Of a stretch of DNA of 64,000 nt, positions 29,821 through 38,800 are shown piece by piece. The position numbers are program-made. The first letter of the stretch is position 1. Each line of letters opens with the position of its first letter. Origin of the DNA: Callorhinchus milii (Eukaryota); the NCBI RefSeq assembly GCF_018977255.1, contig NW_024704778.1, positions 1 to 64,000 on the forward strand. The letters are read 5' to 3'.

Positions 29821-32800
29821 GGAGTTTCTAGGATGGGAGAGAGAGGCACAAGAGAAATGAGGATTTTCTGATATTCCCACCCGTTGCTGCCCAAGTCCCT
29901 TTAGAAAGCCCACATCACTTGAAACAGAACGCACAAGGTAGCAGGGACGGAGTATATACTGGAGACTTTCTACTGGGTTAAGTTCTTGACCCGAACAAGA
30001 ACGCAGAGTGGGAAGGGACGAGTGGGAAGGAAGGAGCGGGATGGGTGAAACTGACCCACTATCAAATGAACAGGAGCCTTATACATTTCTCTTTGCCTGG
30101 GGAGAACCCCATTGAGGAAAATAAAAGCCATAGGAATAGAATTCAATAAATTGCACAGTGTTTAGCCCATCGAGGCGATCGTCTCATTTCGATTTGTGTA
30201 ATCAATCCCATCAGTGAAGCAAATGCAACAGCAGCAGCAACAACAACATGACCTTTATAGAGCGCCTTTCGGGTCGGGAGGACATCCCAAGGCCCTGGAC
30301 AGTCCGGGGGTCGGGGCCCGAGCGTGGGGGGAAGGGAGGGAAGGCGGAGAGGTGGGAGGGGGACCGAAGGCACGGTCGAAGAGGTGGATCTTAAGACCGG
30401 CCTTGAAGGAGGTGAGGGAGGAAGCGAAGCCAAGGGACCGTGGGGTGGAGTTCCAGAGTGTGGGGGCAGAGAGGCTGAAAGCCCGGCCACCGATGGGAGG
30501 GGGGGTCGGGCGGGAGACATGGAGCAGGCCAGAGCCCGCTGAACGGAGGGAGCATATTTACATAAAATATATATATATAAAAATACACTATATATATATA
30601 AAACGCACACAGGCTTTTTCTCTATCACTGAGTCATGTCAGAGGTTTGTTTTTCACAGTTAACTCTTCCCAAAGACTTTGTAGGTAATCTCTTCATTTTG
30701 TGTAGCTCAGGGGTTAGACCCCTCGCCTCGCAAGCGAGCGATTCCCCCGCCGGGCAGGATCAGGGCGAAACATTGGGCAAGTTTCCTGACACCCCGCGCG
30801 CACACACACACACACGTACCTTTGTTTACCTAGCAGTAAGTAGTCAATCGGTGGATCGCTTTCCGGGGGTAATAATCCCTCCAAAAAAAACATTTGGTCA
30901 CTCAATCCACGACTGTCTGTGGGGGAACGTCGCTAGGCACGATTGGCTGCCGCGTTTCGCCCACAAAGTATACAGTCACTGCACTTTACGGTGAATCCCG
31001 TGAAGCGCTTTAAGACGTGATGAGGCGCCGGGTAAACACAAGGATTATTATGATGATGAAGGTGTTTTTTCTGGGAGGTGTGGTGGTGGTGGGGGGGAGT
31101 TTGAGTGATTATATAAAGATGTTCTGACATTTCTCCTTGCCGAAGTTCAGTTTGATCTCCTCCTGGTAGATCGGTGGTAAGTTGGTGCAGGTCATGGCTT
31201 CTGTCACGGCGTCCAGGTGCTCCTGAATGACCCTGTTGTCCCAGTTGGAGTAGGCGGCGGTGGGGGCTTTGCCCAGCGATGGGGGGGTGTAGGTGGCTGT
31301 CGGGTAGTAACCATCTTGCGATCTGTGCTGCCAGTCGTCTTGCTGCCTGTGGATCTTCATGTGAGCATTCCGACTCTTGATCTTGTAGAACATCCTGTGT
31401 TGTGGGGGTGGCGGGGGAGGTTGAGGAAGGAAGAAAGTAATCAAGATTCTCTCTCTCTCTTGTCTACAAATCCCTTCACGCCCTGGCACAGCCCTCCATC
31501 TCCGACTTGCTTACTCCCCACTACCTTCGCTTGTCCCTCGCCCCCCCTCCGCTCCACTACGCCCCAAAGCTTCGGAACTCTTGCCCTCAATCCCTCCACT
31601 TTCCTCCCTCCTTCCCATCCCATTAGATCACGACTGAAGCCCTCCCCCCTTGGACCGTGCTCACGGTCACCCTCTCACTCCCTGCCCCCGGCTCAGCCCA
31701 TGCCGAGTGACGTGAGGGATACTTACTTTCCGCACTGTTTGCAGGGGAAGTTGCCAATAACCGTGGGGCACGGGCTCTGTCGTTCTCTGTGGATGGGCTC
31801 CAGCGACTGTGACCGTAACGGAGGCTATTCCAGAAGCAAGAGAAGGTGGGGAGGAAGGGAAAGAATGTCACTTCACCAAACTGATCGATGCCAACGGCCT
31901 CTCACTCGTTTTCAGATCCCTTCATGTCCCGCCACTTCCCTCCTCCCTCCCTCCCCACTTTCAAATCCCACCTAAAGACCTTCCTTTTTGATCGTGCTTA
32001 CGGTCACCTCCCCACTCCCTCCCTTTCCTCCCCCCGCGCCCCCTCGGCTTGGTATCCGACTCCGCCACTGTCAAGCACTCCGGGAAACACTACCCCACGT
32101 GAAGGGCGCTGTGTAAAATGCTGCCTTGCCCAGCCTGACCTCATTGACGCTGTCTTGTCGGAACACTTGGCCACAATCCTCCTCCGCGTCCAAGGGCCTG
32201 AGTCTTGGCTTCTTGTTGAACTTGAGGATCTTCTTGAAGCTGTAATAGTACTCCACGCACTCCGCGATTGGCTTGGACTTTACCTGGAACAGGCGGAGCG
32301 GGGGGGTGGGGGGGGTAAAGGACATAAGAACTTGCTCGGCAAACGAAGCCCAAGGTCCACCCAGTTCGCCTTCCCACCATCCTGGCAGTCGTTTAACATG
32401 TGTCCCCAAACTCTACGCTGTATCTCTGCCCCCGGATATTATTTTCCAGTAGAAATCGATCTTGTTTGTTTTTGGAACTTTTTCTGTCTCCCTCAGGAGC
32501 CATACATTTACCACTCGCTCACCGAATTAGTGCGTCTGCAGATTTTGTACTGAATTTTCTCCCCCTTCGATCAACCCCAGGCCACGTCCTCTAGTTCTAC
32601 TGTTCAGCACGAAGACATTTACCGTTACTCCACAACCCACACACGCCTCTGTTTACCCAACAGTAAGCAGGAACCCGGTTGTTAGTCGATTGGCGGATCG
32701 CTTTTCTGGAGGTAAAAATCCCTTCCCCCCCCCACCAAAAAAAATAATAAATTGGTCACTCAATCCACGACTGTATTGGGCGCAATTGGCTGCCATGTTC

Positions 32801-35800: not shown

Positions 35801-38800
35801 CCCTTGCGGGCCGGGTTCAGCATCGGCAGCGGGGTGTAGTGGGGGGCGCCCGCCGAGGGGCTGGCGGGCGCCCGCTTCCCCTCCGCGTGGAGCCGGCTGG
35901 GGTACACGCTGGCACAGTGGTAGGGCGGGGGGGCTGCCCCGCAGCTCTGCAACAGAAGGTTAATGATGATGATAATGATAAATAATAATCCTTGCCTTTG
36001 AAACCCGGCGCCGTGCCGCGACTCGAAGCGACGTGAAAGGCGCCTCGTGAACACCGCTTCGTGTGGTGGAGTGACCGTGTTTCGCCCGCGAGCCGATTGC
36101 GCGCAGCGGCGTTCCCCGCAAACAGCCGCGGATTGAGCCGGGTGGGGGGGGTGGTGTGGGAGGGCGACCGAAGGCGGGGTCGGTCAAAGAGGAGGGTCTC
36201 GAGACGAGACTCGAGGGAGGGAGTTCCAAAAGTGGGGGGGGGATGGGGGCAGAGAGGCTGAATTATCAGTCAACACACTCGCTCTTCTGGTATTGTCACG
36301 AGGAAACCTTCCGGTTAATGAAAAGTGCGAAGAAGTTTGGATTAGTTCTTTTATTTCTGTTTCTGAGAAGTAGAATTTTCAAAAAAAAAGTTATTTTTGG
36401 TCAGAAATCATTTCTTGTATAAAAGTAAGAAGGAGTAAAAGCCTTGTTAAGGTCCGTCGAGCATATTAATTAATGTCCCGGGAAAGGTTTTGCAGCTTTG
36501 TAAGAGTCTTATCTGCGCGTTTTATGGATTGTTTCGCCGTTTGAAATTAAAGAGTTTCTTAATCATAGTTTGCTCACTGCCCCGACTTGCAGTCGATGCA
36601 TTTTCCCTCTCGATGACACTGGCTTCCTTGGAAGAGACTAAGCTATTCTTGTAATACTGCAGCTCTTCTTGAACAACAAGTAATTTGGCCTTCAGCTCAT
36701 TGCGTTCTTGCAACACCTCCCTGAGCTCCCCTAACGTGAACCGTGGGCGATTTGGGTCTGCGAGATCCACCGAAGCTTTATCCTCTGGTTGCCGTGTCTC
36801 GCTGCTTGCCTTCTGCAGTTCTCTGTGAAGCCTCTCCGTCTCAGCCTTCAGGTTTGCTTGCTCCATTTTCAACTCCTCCACCGTCAAATTGTGCTTGTTC
36901 ACCAGGGACTCGAACATTTCCAAAACGCGGATGATCTTATACTGCAGCTCGGAGACTCCAGGGCAGCCCACGGGGCTGCTGACTTTCATTAACTCGCGGC
37001 CAATGACATAAGATATATCGTAGACATCTTCTGCCGTTAGCTCGAATGGATCCTTGTCAAAGGCAGAGGCAGGCTCCAAGTCTTCCATCAATGTTTATCT
37101 TGCTGCCAGACTATTTTCCTAGCCTGAAAATAAAACCATCCGATAAAAACGGGTCCCAAACTTACAAGTTCTTATACGCCTTTAAACCAAAAAACAAATC
37201 CCATAAGTATACACAGCTTGTGTTTAATTACCTGATGTTGCACACACAGACTCCCCAGCAGTCGCTTCCTTTTTCTGTAAGTGCTTTTCACATGACAGGA
37301 AAAGGCTCTGTGTTTTGTTTGATTAGCATTTGGTTTCACCAATCCCTTTTTGGTTGCTGCTTCCTTAGCAACGCGACCACAATGATCGTTGCTATGTTGG
37401 CTTTTCTCTTTTTTGTATTAATATAGCAAAACAATATCAAGTAATAATTAATAATATAACATAATATATAGAGAAATAATTAATGATATAAAATGTAGTA
37501 CAAAGGAATCATTAATTATTTTAAAATAGTGTAAAGTATAACTATTGTTAATAATATTTTAAAAAATCAAGTAAGAATCCCTCCAAGAGGGATAAAGTTT
37601 GATCACTCGATCCATAACTGTTTGTGGTATACTGCTATGCACAATTGACTGCTGTATTTCGCCCACAAAAAAATAATATTAAGTACTAATTAATATAAAA
37701 AATCATATAAAGTAATGATCCCTCCAAAAAATAAATAAAATACAAATTAATAATGATTTGGTCACTCAATCCACGACTGTTTGTGGGACACTGCTGTGTG
37801 CAATTGGCTGGCGTGTTTCGCCCACAAATTACACACTGCACGATACAGTATATTCTGTGAGGTGCTTTGAGATGTCTCTACGACGTAATAAGGAGCTGTA
37901 TCAAACGCAAGGATTACAATTATTTATTATAAATCAATGTCAATCCAAAACCAGCTATGAGATGCTGCTTCCTGATAATATTTTCAGTGATTTTATTTCG
38001 CCTCCTTCGTGGTTCTGACATTTGCGGTGCAATATTTCAAAAATGAGTTAGTGAGAAGAGGACGCTGTGTGTAATAACGAGGTAATGAATATGTACTGAG
38101 CGTTTATATTGCTCTGGTTTTAATGTGCATTGCCTTGTGCCTGGAAGAGTACATTTCCATTTATATTGAAAATAGATTTACACGTGTTAATTTTATAGCC
38201 CGGGTCTAATGGCATCTAATCATTACAGTTTTGTGACAGCTTGGCTCACTCTCGTTTCTGGAAGGCTCTGGGTTCAAGCCCTCTGCTGGAACCTTAGGCA
38301 GATTTAAAGTTTAGGCAAGTTTTCTTACTCCACATACATGCGTCTTTTACCTAACAGTAAGTAGGGACCCGCTTGCTAGTCGATTAGCGGATCACTTTTC
38401 CGGGGGTAATAATGCCTTCAAAAAAATAATAATAACAATAGTTTGGTCACTCAATCCACGACATTTTGTGGTACACTACTGTGTGCAATTAGCTGCTGCG
38501 TTTTGTCCACAAAAGATACAGTCACTCCACTTTACAGTGTATTCTGTGATGCGCTTTGAGAGGTCTCGGAGACGTGATAAGGCGCTATGTCAAACACAAG
38601 GACTATTGTTACTATCAAATCTGCATTCTGCAAGATTCGCTTCTGTGTTGAGAGTGCCTCTACTTCGCTCTCCTTTTGACACCTCAGTTCACAAGCGTGG
38701 GAGGAAAGCGGAGAGAAAGAGCATTCAACATGTAGGATAAACAATACTAGAAAGTAACATGGTTCGTTTAACTATTAGGGAAGCAATTAGTAATTTTGTT

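What the first reader, a model, noticed from the sequence alone, without database searches (positions are those of the whole stretch)
31109..35946. Possible fourth paralog of the MIDEAS/TRERF1/ZNF541 HDAC-complex scaffolds
Seen: an intact spliced YTP.PML.P.R.GSGLF + ELM2 + SANT + C2H2 protein with mixed features (ZNF541-like HKKDFY; TRERF1-like EFALH.LFE and VKSK; MIDEAS-like ADLVW.PW) and a distinct C-terminal tail. Knowledge: mammals have three members, which bind DNTTIP1-HDAC1/2; none lies beside FLRT1/MACROD1/B3GAT3 (human 11q12-13). Inference: the ohnolog from this paralogon, retained here and lost in mammals, could define an uncharacterised MiDAC-like deacetylase complex. Caveat: the local assembly is unreliable, so the synteny needs confirmation.
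Basis: partly seen in the sequence, partly recalled or inferred. Interest (0 to 1): 0.75.

Follow-up and report, generated by a model that had tools for sequence, protein, structure and literature searches.

The report
Fourth MIDEAS-family gene in elephant shark
This stretch holds the last nine exons of an elephant-shark gene that is a fourth, uncharacterised sister of the mammalian MIDEAS, TRERF1 and ZNF541 histone-deacetylase scaffold genes; it is kept in most jawed vertebrates but was not found in mammals.

Summary
On the minus strand, 35946-31109 carries nine phase-compatible AG/GT exons: 404 codons plus TAA. They encode the YTP..PML..GSGLF loop, ELM2, SANT, a C-terminal C2H2-type finger and a conserved tail. 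Each exon translation is an exact substring of a public Callorhinchus milii protein, P0001 ('TRERF1-like'). P0001's first 116 residues are not in the window.

The fourth-paralog reading is supported. In two maximum-likelihood trees this gene and its relatives form their own clade (100/100). The clade spans chimaera, sharks, rays, ray-finned fishes, coelacanth, lungfish, caecilian, salamanders, turtles, crocodilians and birds. It lies apart from TRERF1, ZNF541 and MIDEAS, each of which also has cartilaginous-fish members. Rooted on invertebrates the topology is ((MIDEAS,ZNF541),(TRERF1,X)). Callorhinchus has separate TRERF1 and MIDEAS proteins. No mammal, squamate or frog member was listed.

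The residues that in human MIDEAS form the HDAC1 auto-inhibitory loop and the inositol-phosphate/tetramer contacts are largely kept. A MiDAC-like HDAC1/2 scaffold is therefore the likeliest function, but this is inferred.

The 11q12-13 synteny is not confirmed, because the gene sits between near-identical inverted duplicates that end at an assembly gap. Gene models already exist in databases; no paper was found.

The parts
35727..35946 (-). Exon E1 (220 nt, enters in phase 0). It encodes the family's HDAC1 auto-inhibitory loop (H-YTPLPMLNPARKGSGLF) and, about 20 residues upstream, a degenerate copy (VYPSRLH) of the second conserved motif. Its 5' end is a splice acceptor, so earlier exons must exist.
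   Evidence: acceptor ttgcag, donor gtaggt; translation is an exact substring of P0001 from residue 117. (aligned to MIDEAS 9r4i_B). (role of the loop in MIDEAS). (motif across the family).
34726..34780 (-). Exon E2 (55 nt), a poorly conserved linker between the loop and ELM2. Its last two bases plus the first base of E3 encode the Pro that matches MIDEAS P721.
   Evidence: P0001 residues 190-208, 94.7% identity in tblastn. (AG/GT, phase fits, exact substring at residue 191). None of 43 family proteins from other species gave an HSP here.
34233..34375 (-). Exon E3: start of the ELM2 domain (INVGHQFQA..ADLVWRPW).
   Evidence: Pfam ELM2, 4.8e-12, 47 bits, cut-off 21.7. (MIDEAS 6z2j_F, 2.3e-8)..
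34003..34106 (-). Exon E4: the short first ELM2 helix ([11 protein letters not shown]) and the PGGGTN..ALHCL segment.
   Evidence: aligned to MIDEAS. (in MIDEAS this short helix binds the DNTTIP1 dimer groove). (helix 250-263, pLDDT 83-94)..
33229..33304 (-). Exon E5: last ELM2 helix and the linker to SANT (..SYHYTG).
32931..33019 (-). Exon E6: first half of SANT (W..ERK.FNKAF..HKKDFY). It holds the equivalents of MIDEAS K839, K843 and K849, all Lys.
   Evidence: gapless alignment; chain index + 714 = MIDEAS residue number. (roles of these residues)..
32140..32283 (-). Exon E7: second half of SANT (VKSK..CVEYYYSFKK). MIDEAS Y874 becomes F and V878 becomes L; the YY and KK residues are kept.
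   Evidence: In one search this exon scores 60-70 bits with 8 of 8 cartilaginous-fish X proteins, against 42-48 for TRERF1, 36-40 for ZNF541 and 32-38 for MIDEAS.
31727..31824 (-). Exon E8: spacer and first half of the C-terminal C2H2-type finger (FPCKQCG). An in-frame alternative acceptor lies at 31806.
   Evidence: The public model uses 31824.
31109..31394 (-). Exon E9: second half of the finger (FYKIKSRNAHMKIH), a clade-specific conserved tail, and the TAA stop (31111-31109).
   Evidence: 44 hits, all of this clade. (tail conserved from chimaera to lungfish, gar and caecilian).. In the AF2 model the tail has pLDDT below 50.
28387..28411 (.). Assembly gap of 25 N. Both inverted duplicate pairs end exactly here. 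I left the gap as it is.
36283..45503 (.). Right arm of a 9.2-kb inverted duplicate; the left arm is 19193-28386. It begins 337 bp upstream of E1 and carries a copy of the RILPL2 ORF. The arms differ by 16 mismatches and 36 gap openings in 9231 columns.
28412..30196 (.). Arm of a second inverted duplicate (partner 15819-17596), with 0 mismatches and 2 gap openings in 1786 columns. With the 9.2-kb arm it brackets the 6.1-kb unique segment 30197-36282 that holds the gene.
36522..37094 (-). Neighbour: a single-exon RILP-like protein 2 ORF on the same strand, 576 bp upstream of E1. An identical copy lies at 27575-28147 (+).
   Evidence: (Pfam RILP 3.2e-19, RH1 3.8e-15). (exact sequence clusters with Callorhinchus 'RILP-like protein 2').
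49046..50998 (-). Neighbour: a single-exon FLRT ORF of 650 aa.
   Evidence: LRR plus fn3. (the exact sequence is in the collection; the cluster representative is named FLRT1, Callorhinchus milii). (best solved structure is FLRT3 at 507 bits, ahead of FLRT2 at 417; no FLRT1 structure was among the matches).

Best explanation
Window 35946-31109 (minus strand) is the 3' part of the Callorhinchus milii ortholog of a fourth jawed-vertebrate member of the MIDEAS/TRERF1/ZNF541 family. It comprises nine exons and 404 codons. I call this member 'X'. Databases label it 'TRERF1-like', 'uncharacterized', or si:dkey-19b23.10 in teleosts.

Shown here:
- The exons are intact and spliceable.
- X is a separate ancient clade, sister to TRERF1, present from chimaeras to birds, and not listed for mammals, squamates or frogs.

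Inferred:
- Like MIDEAS, the protein wraps its ELM2-SANT module around HDAC1/2, with inositol phosphate bound at the SANT-HDAC interface.
- Its short first ELM2 helix docks on the DNTTIP1 dimer.
- Its YTP..PML..GSGLF loop lies over the deacetylase active site as an auto-inhibitory element.
- The C-terminal C2H2-type finger and the clade-specific tail give it targets or partners of its own.

The rooted tree fits an origin in the two rounds of vertebrate genome duplication. Local synteny cannot confirm that here.
For: Gene structure. There are nine exons, all AG/GT, with matching phases and no internal stop. Each translation is an exact substring of P0001, in order. P0001 is 100% identical to E9.

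Family membership.
- ELM2 is found at 4.8e-12 on one exon and 9.4e-15 on P0001.
- Against the PDB, P0001 matches MIDEAS at 7.8e-58 (9r4i_B) and 7e-53 (6z2j_F). The next family, CoREST, scores 8e-10.
- The AF2 model's best fold matches are the MIDEAS chains of MiDAC (3.9e-13 to 3.7e-8), followed by CoREST and MTA1.

Fourth clade.
- Tree 1 has 77 named proteins and 327 columns. X (32 rows) is one side of a branch at 100/100. MIDEAS has 100/100, ZNF541 98/91 and TRERF1 95/91.
- Tree 2 has 83 rows and 333 columns, rooted on 7 invertebrate homologs. X (38 rows) has 100/100, X+TRERF1 99/94 and MIDEAS+ZNF541 94/63.
- The AU test rejects (cartilaginous-fish X + TRERF1) as one clade: delta lnL 54.7, p = 3e-10.
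- The same species carry the paralogs on contigs of different length. In S. canicula, X is on 12.1 Mb, TRERF1 on 313.6 Mb and ZNF541 on 24.4 Mb. The same holds for Heterodontus, Heptranchias, Cetorhinus and Pristis.
- Callorhinchus has TRERF1 (P0051) and MIDEAS (P0157).
- Scored directly against the window, exons E1, E7, E8 and E9 score highest with cartilaginous-fish X proteins. For E9 the values are 76-151 bits in 7 of 8, against 40-46 for TRERF1, 34-38 for ZNF541 and 31-38 for MIDEAS.

Mechanism.
- MIDEAS 653-670 covers the HDAC1 active site, and removing it raises activity about fivefold (PMC12647621, passages read).
- The window keeps Y654, T655, P656, P658, L660, P662, R664, GSGL and P721. 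It has Met at I659. Met is the state in 28 of 28 X, 17 of 17 TRERF1, 10 of 10 ZNF541 and 7 of 7 invertebrate rows that matched the motif. Ile occurs only in 8 of 8 MIDEAS.
- K839, K843 and K849 are kept. Y874 becomes F and V878 becomes L. The YY..KK residues are kept.
- In the first ELM2 helix, 8 of 11 residues are identical to MIDEAS.
Against: - No binding or activity was tested. HDAC1/2 and DNTTIP1 contacts are inferred from alignment to human MIDEAS.
- The 5' exons are missing from the window, so the gene is not shown to be whole in this assembly.
- Pfam SANT and zf-C2H2 scores are below the curated cut-offs.
- The AF2 model is poor overall (mean pLDDT 59.8). The loop scores about 54-58 and the tail below 50.
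- The second MIDEAS motif (631-637, YQS.LRS type) is degenerate in Callorhinchus.
- Bird models have YRP in place of YTP, so the loop may not work alike across the whole clade.
- Tree limits: MIDEAS+ZNF541 has only 94/63 support. Only one lamprey sequence was used (placed at 92/76). The AU group was named after the tree had been seen.
- No single species yielded all four paralogs in my searches. A Callorhinchus ZNF541 was not among the listed hits.
- Absence from mammals, squamates and frogs rests on the best 120 of 252 hits, from 8000 scored candidates of 341-1085 aa.
Confidence: 0.8

Rival explanations
1. It is simply the TRERF1 gene of this fish, or a duplicate of TRERF1 specific to cartilaginous fishes, as the database label 'TRERF1-like' suggests.
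For: NCBI and UniRef name most members 'transcriptional-regulating factor 1(-like)'. TRERF1 is the sister clade (99/94). VKSK and EFALH.LFE are shared with TRERF1.
Against: Callorhinchus has a separate 1145-aa TRERF1 (P0051) that sits with the other TRERF1 proteins. The X clade includes bony vertebrates at 100/100. The AU test rejects cartilaginous-fish X + TRERF1 as one clade (p = 3e-10). X lacks the extra finger that TRERF1 has between SANT and the last finger (alignment; Pfam on P0051 against P0001).
Confidence: 0.03
2. The copy in this window is a truncated fragment, a pseudogene or an assembly chimera, and does not belong to a working gene.
For: There are no upstream exons within 28 kb. 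The 6.1-kb unique segment is bracketed by two near-identical inverted duplicates that end at a 25-N gap. Another gene (RILPL2) ends 576 bp upstream on the same strand.
Against: There are 404 codons over nine exons without a stop or a broken splice site. Functionally important residues are kept. The sequence is 67-68% identical to shark orthologs over about 300 columns, with an end branch of ordinary length (0.26-0.27). The public protein model joins these exons to N-terminal exons that encode a confidently folded finger. The missing 5' end is more simply explained by the evident misassembly.
Confidence: 0.07
3. It is a real fourth paralog but works outside a MiDAC-type complex. For example, it might bind HDAC1/2 without DNTTIP1, or act mainly as a DNA-binding factor through its fingers.
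For: DNTTIP1 contacts could not be tested. X proteins are shorter (about 600-950 aa) than their paralogs. The N-terminal regions and the tail are clade-specific. The 631-637 motif is degenerate. Branches in X are longer than in TRERF1.
Against: The short first ELM2 helix that contacts DNTTIP1 in MIDEAS has 8 of 11 residues identical. The tetramer and InsP residues are kept or conservatively changed. The auto-inhibitory loop, which only makes sense on an HDAC, is conserved in 28 of 29 X rows by strict motif, and in altered form in birds and alligators.
Confidence: 0.25
4. X arose by a small-scale duplication of the TRERF1 ancestor, not as a whole-genome-duplication ohnolog tied to the FLRT1/B3GAT3 (human 11q12-13) paralogon.
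For: Synteny is unverified. The window's gene order is unreliable. No macro-domain exon was found. The B3GAT exon does not distinguish B3GAT3 from B3GAT1 (126.6 against 125.7 bits). The FLRT1 name comes only from a database label.
Against: The rooted topology ((MIDEAS,ZNF541),(TRERF1,X)), with all four clades splitting into cartilaginous and bony lineages, is what two rounds of duplication predict. X and TRERF1 lie on different contigs in six species.
Confidence: 0.2

Closest known systems
MIDEAS (ELMSAN1), the scaffold of the MiDAC HDAC1/2-DNTTIP1 complex (PDB 6z2j, 6z2k, 9r4i)
   Same: It shares the auto-inhibitory loop, ELM2, SANT and a C-terminal C2H2-type finger in the same order. It is the best sequence match (7.8e-58) and the best fold match (3.9e-13) among solved structures. 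K839, K843 and K849 are kept, as are the YY/KK residues and the short first ELM2 helix.
   Different: It is a separate clade; Callorhinchus has its own MIDEAS, P0157. It has Met, not Ile, at the residue that enters the HDAC1 channel, and N/D, not S, two residues later. Y874 becomes F and V878 becomes L. The tail and N-terminus differ, and the protein is shorter.
TRERF1 (TReP-132)
   Same: It is the sister clade (99/94). It shares VKSK, EFALH.LFE, Met in the loop and F at the end of the loop.
   Different: TRERF1 is a distinct gene in the same genomes. It has an extra finger between SANT and the last finger, plus strong N-terminal C2H2 pairs that X lacks. X has its own conserved C-terminal tail.
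ZNF541 (testis-specific in mammals according to PMC7319964)
   Same: The domain order is the same. HKKDFY is shared with mammalian ZNF541. A few X models are labelled 'ZNF541(-like)' in databases (bowfin, kiwi, alligator).
   Different: ZNF541 groups with MIDEAS, not with X. Sharks have separate ZNF541-like genes on other contigs.
Single invertebrate homologs (C. elegans SAEG-1 as named in PMC7319964; amphioxus, Ciona, abalone and centipede proteins used here)
   Same: They share the loop (YTPPPMLSP.R.GSGL), ELM2-SANT and the last finger, which shows that X keeps the ancestral layout.
   Different: They are pre-duplication single genes, much longer (1400-2000 aa), and used here only as an outgroup.
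Other ELM2-SANT HDAC scaffolds (CoREST/RCOR, MTA1)
   Same: The ELM2-SANT fold is the same, and they are the second-tier structural matches.
   Different: They are far weaker matches (8e-10 in sequence; 2e-4 to 1e-2 in fold). They have no YTP loop. MTA1 dimerises through a longer ELM2 helix.

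Membership tests
MIDEAS/TRERF1/ZNF541 family (MiDAC-type scaffolds) | ELM2 domain | tested here: met
   Pfam ELM2: 47 bits on exon E3 alone and 55.7 bits on P0001. The cut-off is 21.7.
MIDEAS/TRERF1/ZNF541 family (MiDAC-type scaffolds) | SANT domain directly after ELM2 | tested here: met
   Residues 308-370 of P0001 (exons E5-E7) align without gaps to the MIDEAS SANT domain in 6z2j_F. The AF2 helices there have pLDDT 92-97. The Pfam Myb/SANT score of 19.3 bits is below the 24.4 cut-off.
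MIDEAS/TRERF1/ZNF541 family (MiDAC-type scaffolds) | Conserved loop Y-T-P-x-P-[MI]-L-x-P-x-R-x-G-S-G-L-[FY] N-terminal to ELM2 (the HDAC1 auto-inhibitory loop of MIDEAS) | tested here: met
   The loop is present in E1. A strict motif matched 73 of 83 family rows. The 10 misses were 8 archosaur X models, 1 medaka X and 1 pangolin ZNF541. Six of the archosaur models and the medaka model carry altered versions; no loop was found in the Aquila model, and the pangolin ZNF541 was not re-examined.
MIDEAS/TRERF1/ZNF541 family (MiDAC-type scaffolds) | Second upstream motif (MIDEAS 631-637, YQS.LRS type) | tested here: inconclusive
   Sharks have VYQSYLRS, but Callorhinchus has VYPSRLH and bony-fish X has YTG.PF.S. 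The position is right, but the sequence is degenerate.
MIDEAS/TRERF1/ZNF541 family (MiDAC-type scaffolds) | C-terminal C2H2-type finger FPCK.CGK.F.K.KSR.AHMK.H | tested here: met
   The finger is split between E8 and E9 and aligned across all four clades. The Pfam zf-C2H2 score of 18.6 bits is below the 25.2 cut-off.
MIDEAS/TRERF1/ZNF541 family (MiDAC-type scaffolds) | Inositol-phosphate and tetramer-interface residues of the SANT domain (K839, K843, K849, Y874, V878) | tested here: met
   The window has K, K, K, F and L at these positions (residue roles from PMC7319964). Three are identical and two are conservative changes.
MIDEAS/TRERF1/ZNF541 family (MiDAC-type scaffolds) | Binds HDAC1/2 | not testable with these tools
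MIDEAS/TRERF1/ZNF541 family (MiDAC-type scaffolds) | Binds the DNTTIP1 dimerisation domain through the short first ELM2 helix | not testable with these tools
   Only the conservation of the helix could be checked: 8 of 11 residues are identical to MIDEAS.
TRERF1 orthologs | Nests within the TRERF1 clade and is the genome's only such gene | tested here: not met
   It lies outside TRERF1 (TRERF1 95/91 and 99/92; X 100/100). AU p = 3e-10. Callorhinchus TRERF1 is P0051.
ZNF541 orthologs | Nests within the ZNF541 clade | tested here: not met
   ZNF541 (98/91 and 99/97) groups with MIDEAS, away from X.
MIDEAS orthologs | Nests within the MIDEAS clade | tested here: not met
   MIDEAS has 100/100 support and includes Callorhinchus P0157.
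2R ohnolog quartet | Symmetric ((A,B),(C,D)) topology, with the duplications preceding the split of cartilaginous and bony vertebrates | tested here: met
   The topology is ((MIDEAS,ZNF541) 94/63, (TRERF1,X) 99/94), rooted on 7 invertebrate sequences. The one lamprey sequence branches below all four at 92/76.
   An ORF labelled FLRT1 and GT43/B3GAT exons are in the window. However, the gene is separated from both by inverted duplicates and a gap, no MACROD1 exon was found, and no eukaryotic genome collection was available to check other species.

The most novel reading that the evidence does not exclude
X (teleost si:dkey-19b23.10; 'TRERF1-like' in sharks, birds and others) is a 2R-derived fourth MiDAC scaffold. 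In most jawed vertebrates it assembles its own auto-inhibited HDAC1/2-DNTTIP1 complex. Its clade-specific conserved C-terminal tail gives that complex partners or targets the other three lack. It was lost independently in mammals, squamates and frogs. If so, work on MiDAC in zebrafish or chicken has been overlooking one of the four scaffolds.
Probability: 0.45. Interest if true: 0.6.

Novelty: new member of a known kind. Interest (0 to 1): 0.45.

Why it matters
The MiDAC literature I read treats MIDEAS, TRERF1 and ZNF541 as the whole family. This is stated in the Discussion of PMC7319964 and in the legend of Fig. 4a of PMC12647621.

A fourth ancient scaffold in zebrafish, chicken, turtles and sharks has three consequences:
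- Knock-outs and proteomics in those model species may be buffered or confounded by an unrecognised paralog.
- Database labels such as 'TRERF1-like', 'TRERF1' (gar, coelacanth, alligator) or 'ZNF541' (bowfin) can mislead orthology-based studies.
- Its repeated loss gives a natural experiment on which MiDAC functions are dispensable.

The conserved auto-inhibitory loop, with the ancestral Met rather than the MIDEAS-specific Ile, also offers a comparative handle on how that loop tunes HDAC activity.

It is not a new kind of system, and losing an ohnolog in mammals is common, so the surprise is moderate.

Tried and rejected
- **First exon model.** It joined E1 directly to E3 in phase and dismissed the 55-nt exon. 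The tblastn of P0001 showed that the small exon is used, with a donor 4 nt earlier. I corrected the model.
- **Exon-wise Pfam.** Only ELM2 on E3 was informative. A P68HR hit on E6 (E = 0.023, 15.3 bits against a cut-off of 25) is a chance match.
- **Search for upstream exons.** I ran tblastn with P0001, P0007 and 43 family proteins. The only other hits fall in a proline-rich low-complexity stretch at 6.5-7.9 kb, and I rejected them.
- **MACROD1.** A regex for macro-domain motifs in six frames gave 5 matches, none in a macro-domain context. This is a weak test, so MACROD1 stays unverified.
- **B3GAT subtype from solved structures.** Undecided: 126.6 against 125.7 bits.
- **FLRT subtype from solved structures.** FLRT3 scores above FLRT2, and no FLRT1 structure was among the matches, so this cannot decide the subtype.
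- **Rfam over the window.** There were 11 tRNA-model matches, none inside 30197-36282. Tandem repeats in the region are trivial.
- **Literature.** 'dkey-19b23.10' gave 0 papers. 'TRERF1-like' gave 0. 'transcriptional-regulating factor 1-like' gave 1, an unrelated grapevine paper. MiDAC/TRERF1/ZNF541/paralog gave 10 papers holding at least 3 of the 4 terms, 9 listed, with none of the titles or abstracts mentioning a fourth member. TRERF1 + ohnolog gave 0.
- **Synteny in other genomes.** Not attempted.

Full report
**What is there**

The corrected model has nine exons:

| Exon | Window coordinates (minus strand) |
|---|---|
| E1 | 35946-35727 |
| E2 | 34780-34726 |
| E3 | 34375-34233 |
| E4 | 34106-34003 |
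| E5 | 33304-33229 |
| E6 | 33019-32931 |
| E7 | 32283-32140 |
| E8 | 31824-31727 |
| E9 | 31394-31109 |

All acceptors end in AG and all donors start with GT. The phases fit. The total is 1212 nt, which is 404 codons followed by TAA. My first pass missed E2 and misplaced the E1 donor; I corrected both.

**How I searched**

Window sequence was searched exon by exon.
- Pfam found ELM2 on E3 (4.8e-12) and nothing credible on the other 7 of 8 exon translations.
- E3 alone hits human MIDEAS among solved structures (2.3e-8), well ahead of CoREST (0.085).
- E9 alone, the finger half plus the tail, found 44 proteins at E <= 0.01 among 231 candidates.
- The top hit, P0001, is a UniRef Callorhinchus milii protein of 520 aa named 'Transcriptional-regulating factor 1-like', with 100% identity over 100% of the exon.

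Each of the nine exon translations is an exact substring of P0001, in order, from residue 117 to 520. For whole-protein analyses I used this public entry. The FLRT and RILPL2 ORFs of the window are also letter-for-letter Callorhinchus entries. The window is therefore elephant shark, and I do not take it for human.

**What is missing, and the state of the assembly**

Residues 1-116 of P0001 include an N-terminal finger that AlphaFold models at pLDDT 92. They have no match in the 64 kb. Neither do the roughly 400 further N-terminal residues of the shark orthologs.

A self-comparison shows two inverted duplicate pairs:
- 19193-28386 is the reverse complement of 36283-45503 (9231 columns, 99.3% identity).
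- 15819-17596 is the reverse complement of 28412-30196 (99.5% identity).

In each pair one arm ends at the 25-N gap at 28387-28411. The long arms differ by only 16 substitutions and 36 gap openings, and the short arms by no substitutions.

The gene occupies the 6.1-kb unique segment between them. The right arm starts 337 bp upstream of E1 and brings a RILPL2 ORF to within 576 bp. This looks like redundant or misjoined contigs, or possibly a very recent duplication, and I cannot tell which. The practical result is that gene order around the locus cannot be used.

**Is it a fourth paralog?**

I gathered named family members in several steps:
- A search with the catshark ortholog P0007 (region 620-860) gave 336 hits at E <= 1e-8, with the best 120 listed.
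- Named MIDEAS sequences came from a representative search with a catfish MIDEAS, P0092. Names were looked up, including Callorhinchus MIDEAS P0157.

The trees gave these supports (ultrafast bootstrap / SH-aLRT):

| Grouping | Tree 1: 77 proteins, 327 columns, LG+C20 PMSF | Tree 2: 83 rows, 333 columns, rooted on 7 invertebrates |
|---|---|---|
| X | 100/100 (32 rows) | 100/100 (38 rows) |
| MIDEAS | 100/100 | 100/100 |
| ZNF541 | 98/91 | 99/97 |
| TRERF1 | 95/91 | 99/92 |
| X + TRERF1 | not given | 99/94 |
| MIDEAS + ZNF541 | 95/90 | 94/63 |

In tree 2 the single lamprey sequence branches below all four clades (92/76).

X contains chimaera, sharks and rays (9 rows), lungfish, coelacanth, bichir, sturgeon and paddlefish, gar, bowfin, teleosts, a caecilian, salamanders, turtles, two alligators and six birds. 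Its branching follows the species tree. TRERF1, ZNF541 and MIDEAS each have their own cartilaginous-fish subclade.

An AU test rejects holding cartilaginous-fish X together with TRERF1 (delta lnL 54.7, p = 3e-10). I named that group after seeing the tree.

In five cartilaginous fishes the X, TRERF1 and ZNF541 proteins come from contigs of different length, for example S. canicula at 12.1, 313.6 and 24.4 Mb. In gar the X and TRERF1 proteins likewise come from different contigs (23.6 and 78.3 Mb).

Scored directly against the window DNA, exons E1, E7, E8 and E9 prefer cartilaginous-fish X proteins. E3/E4 (a single HSP), E5 and E6 discriminate little. E2 found nothing in any of the 43 proteins.

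The limits are as follows:
- No single species gave all four paralogs in my hit lists.
- A Callorhinchus ZNF541 was not among the 120 rows listed.

**Distribution**

A search with a turtle X protein (P0020) gave 252 hits at E <= 1e-10 among 8000 scored candidates of 341-1085 aa, with the best 120 listed. After the turtles it listed birds, alligators, a caecilian, salamanders and fishes.

Every mammalian row was MIDEAS or ZNF541. No squamate row was listed, and the one frog row was TRERF1. Absence from mammals, squamates and frogs is therefore 'not found', not proven.

NCBI's ortholog-based name si:dkey-19b23.10 on eel, barb, minnow and pike proteins implies a zebrafish gene of that name.

**How it probably works**

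P0001 aligns to the MIDEAS chains of the MiDAC cryo-EM structures at 7.8e-58 (9r4i_B, query 142-370) and 7e-53 (6z2j_F). CoREST follows at 8e-10.

An AlphaFold model built on a 55-sequence alignment is poor overall (mean pLDDT 59.8) but confident for ELM2-SANT (79-97 over residues 240-370). Its best fold matches are again the MIDEAS chains (3.9e-13 to 3.7e-8), followed by CoREST and MTA1.

From passages of PMC12647621:
- MIDEAS 653-670 lies over the HDAC1 active site, with I659 in the channel.
- Y654, T655, P656 and P721 make defined contacts.
- Removing the loop makes the complex about five times more active.

The window's E1 keeps Y, T, P, the second P, L, P, R and GSGL, and the Pro equivalent to P721. 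It has Met at the I659 position. Among rows matching a strict motif (73 of 83), Met is found in 28 of 28 X, 17 of 17 TRERF1, 10 of 10 ZNF541 and 7 of 7 invertebrates. Ile is found only in 8 of 8 MIDEAS. Met is therefore the ancestral state. X is marked by N or D in place of S two residues later, in 27 of 28 rows.

From passages and section 11 of PMC7319964:
- K839 and K843 reach the neighbouring inositol phosphate.
- K849, Y874 and V878 form the tetramer interface.
- The short first ELM2 helix docks on DNTTIP1.

With chain index + 714 fitting all five named residues, the window has K, K, K, F and L at those positions, and the helix is identical at 8 of 11 positions.

I therefore think the protein is an HDAC1/2 scaffold of the MiDAC type with a working auto-inhibitory loop. 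None of this binding was tested here.

The tail after the finger is conserved from chimaera to lungfish, gar and caecilian, and has no Pfam match. It is the most likely seat of clade-specific function. It is predicted to be disordered apart from one short helix.

- The window does hold an ORF whose exact sequence clusters with a Callorhinchus entry named FLRT1.
- Two GT43 (B3GAT-type) exons are present.
- The B3GAT exon does not separate B3GAT3 from B3GAT1.
- Solved structures only show FLRT3 scoring above FLRT2.
- I found no macro-domain exon.
- Both neighbours are separated from the gene by the duplicated arms.

The rooted four-clade topology is what two rounds of genome duplication predict, but assignment to a paralogon remains open.

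**Novelty**

The MiDAC papers I read name only TRERF1 and ZNF541 as MIDEAS homologues. I saw the Discussion and section 11 of PMC7319964, passages of PMC12647621, and other papers only as search listings.

Five further searches found no paper on a fourth member or on the zebrafish gene name. Supplements were closed.

The gene is, however, already present as predicted models in NCBI and UniRef under inconsistent names. I file it as a new member of a known kind, of moderate interest.

Noticed in passing
window 36522-37094 (-) and 27575-28147 (+): A complete RILP-like protein 2 ORF (188 aa from its Met) sits in a single exon, present twice in identical form in the inverted arms. The exact protein matches Callorhinchus 'RILP-like protein 2' entries. 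An intronless RILPL2 next to FLRT- and B3GAT-type genes might be a retrocopy. I did not pursue this.
   Followed up: partly
window 19193-28386 / 36283-45503 and 15819-17596 / 28412-30196: There are two nested inverted duplicate pairs, and in each pair one arm ends at the 25-N gap. They differ almost only by small indels: 16 substitutions in 9.2 kb and none in 1.8 kb. The flanks of the copies differ, so a simple haplotig overlap does not explain the layout.
   Followed up: partly
window 6450-8100, both strands: A GC-rich (0.65) proline/histidine-rich low-complexity stretch has long open frames on both strands. It attracts spurious tblastn hits from disordered regions of many family proteins. 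It lies just upstream of the B3GAT-type exons at 8906-9370 and 10175-10579 (+).
   Followed up: no
whole window, e.g. 18837-18910, 19820-19891, 44806-44877, 60862-60934: Eleven matches to the Rfam tRNA model were found, three of them mirrored in the inverted arms. Many short ORFs also share a recurring repeat-derived peptide signature. These are probably heads of tRNA-derived SINEs, which also fill the introns of the gene. I did not classify them.
   Followed up: no
related proteins P0306, P0400, P0308, P0252, P0307 (birds); P0310, P0404 (alligators): Bird members of the X clade carry Y-R-P in place of Y-T-P in the auto-inhibitory loop (RYRPPPMLDPGR), and alligators have PPILDPLR. Their predicted tails are short and proline-rich, and their amino-acid composition departs from the rest of the alignment. 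This may reflect real divergence on GC-rich microchromosomes or poor gene models.
   Followed up: partly
P0001 residues about 20-41 (not in the window); shark orthologs about residues 415-440: An N-terminal C-x2-C...H-x6-C finger is conserved between Callorhinchus and sharks and is modelled at pLDDT 92. A KLDSF..AF motif near the N-terminus is conserved across the whole family. Neither was studied.
   Followed up: no
database names of clade X members: Orthologs are labelled inconsistently: 'TRERF1' (gar, coelacanth, conger, American alligator), 'ZNF541' (bowfin) and 'ZNF541-like' (kiwi, Chinese alligator), 'basic proline-rich protein-like' (golden eagle), 'suppressor of activated egl-4 protein 1' (a cyprinid), and 'uncharacterized' elsewhere. 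Orthology-by-name would mislead.
   Followed up: yes
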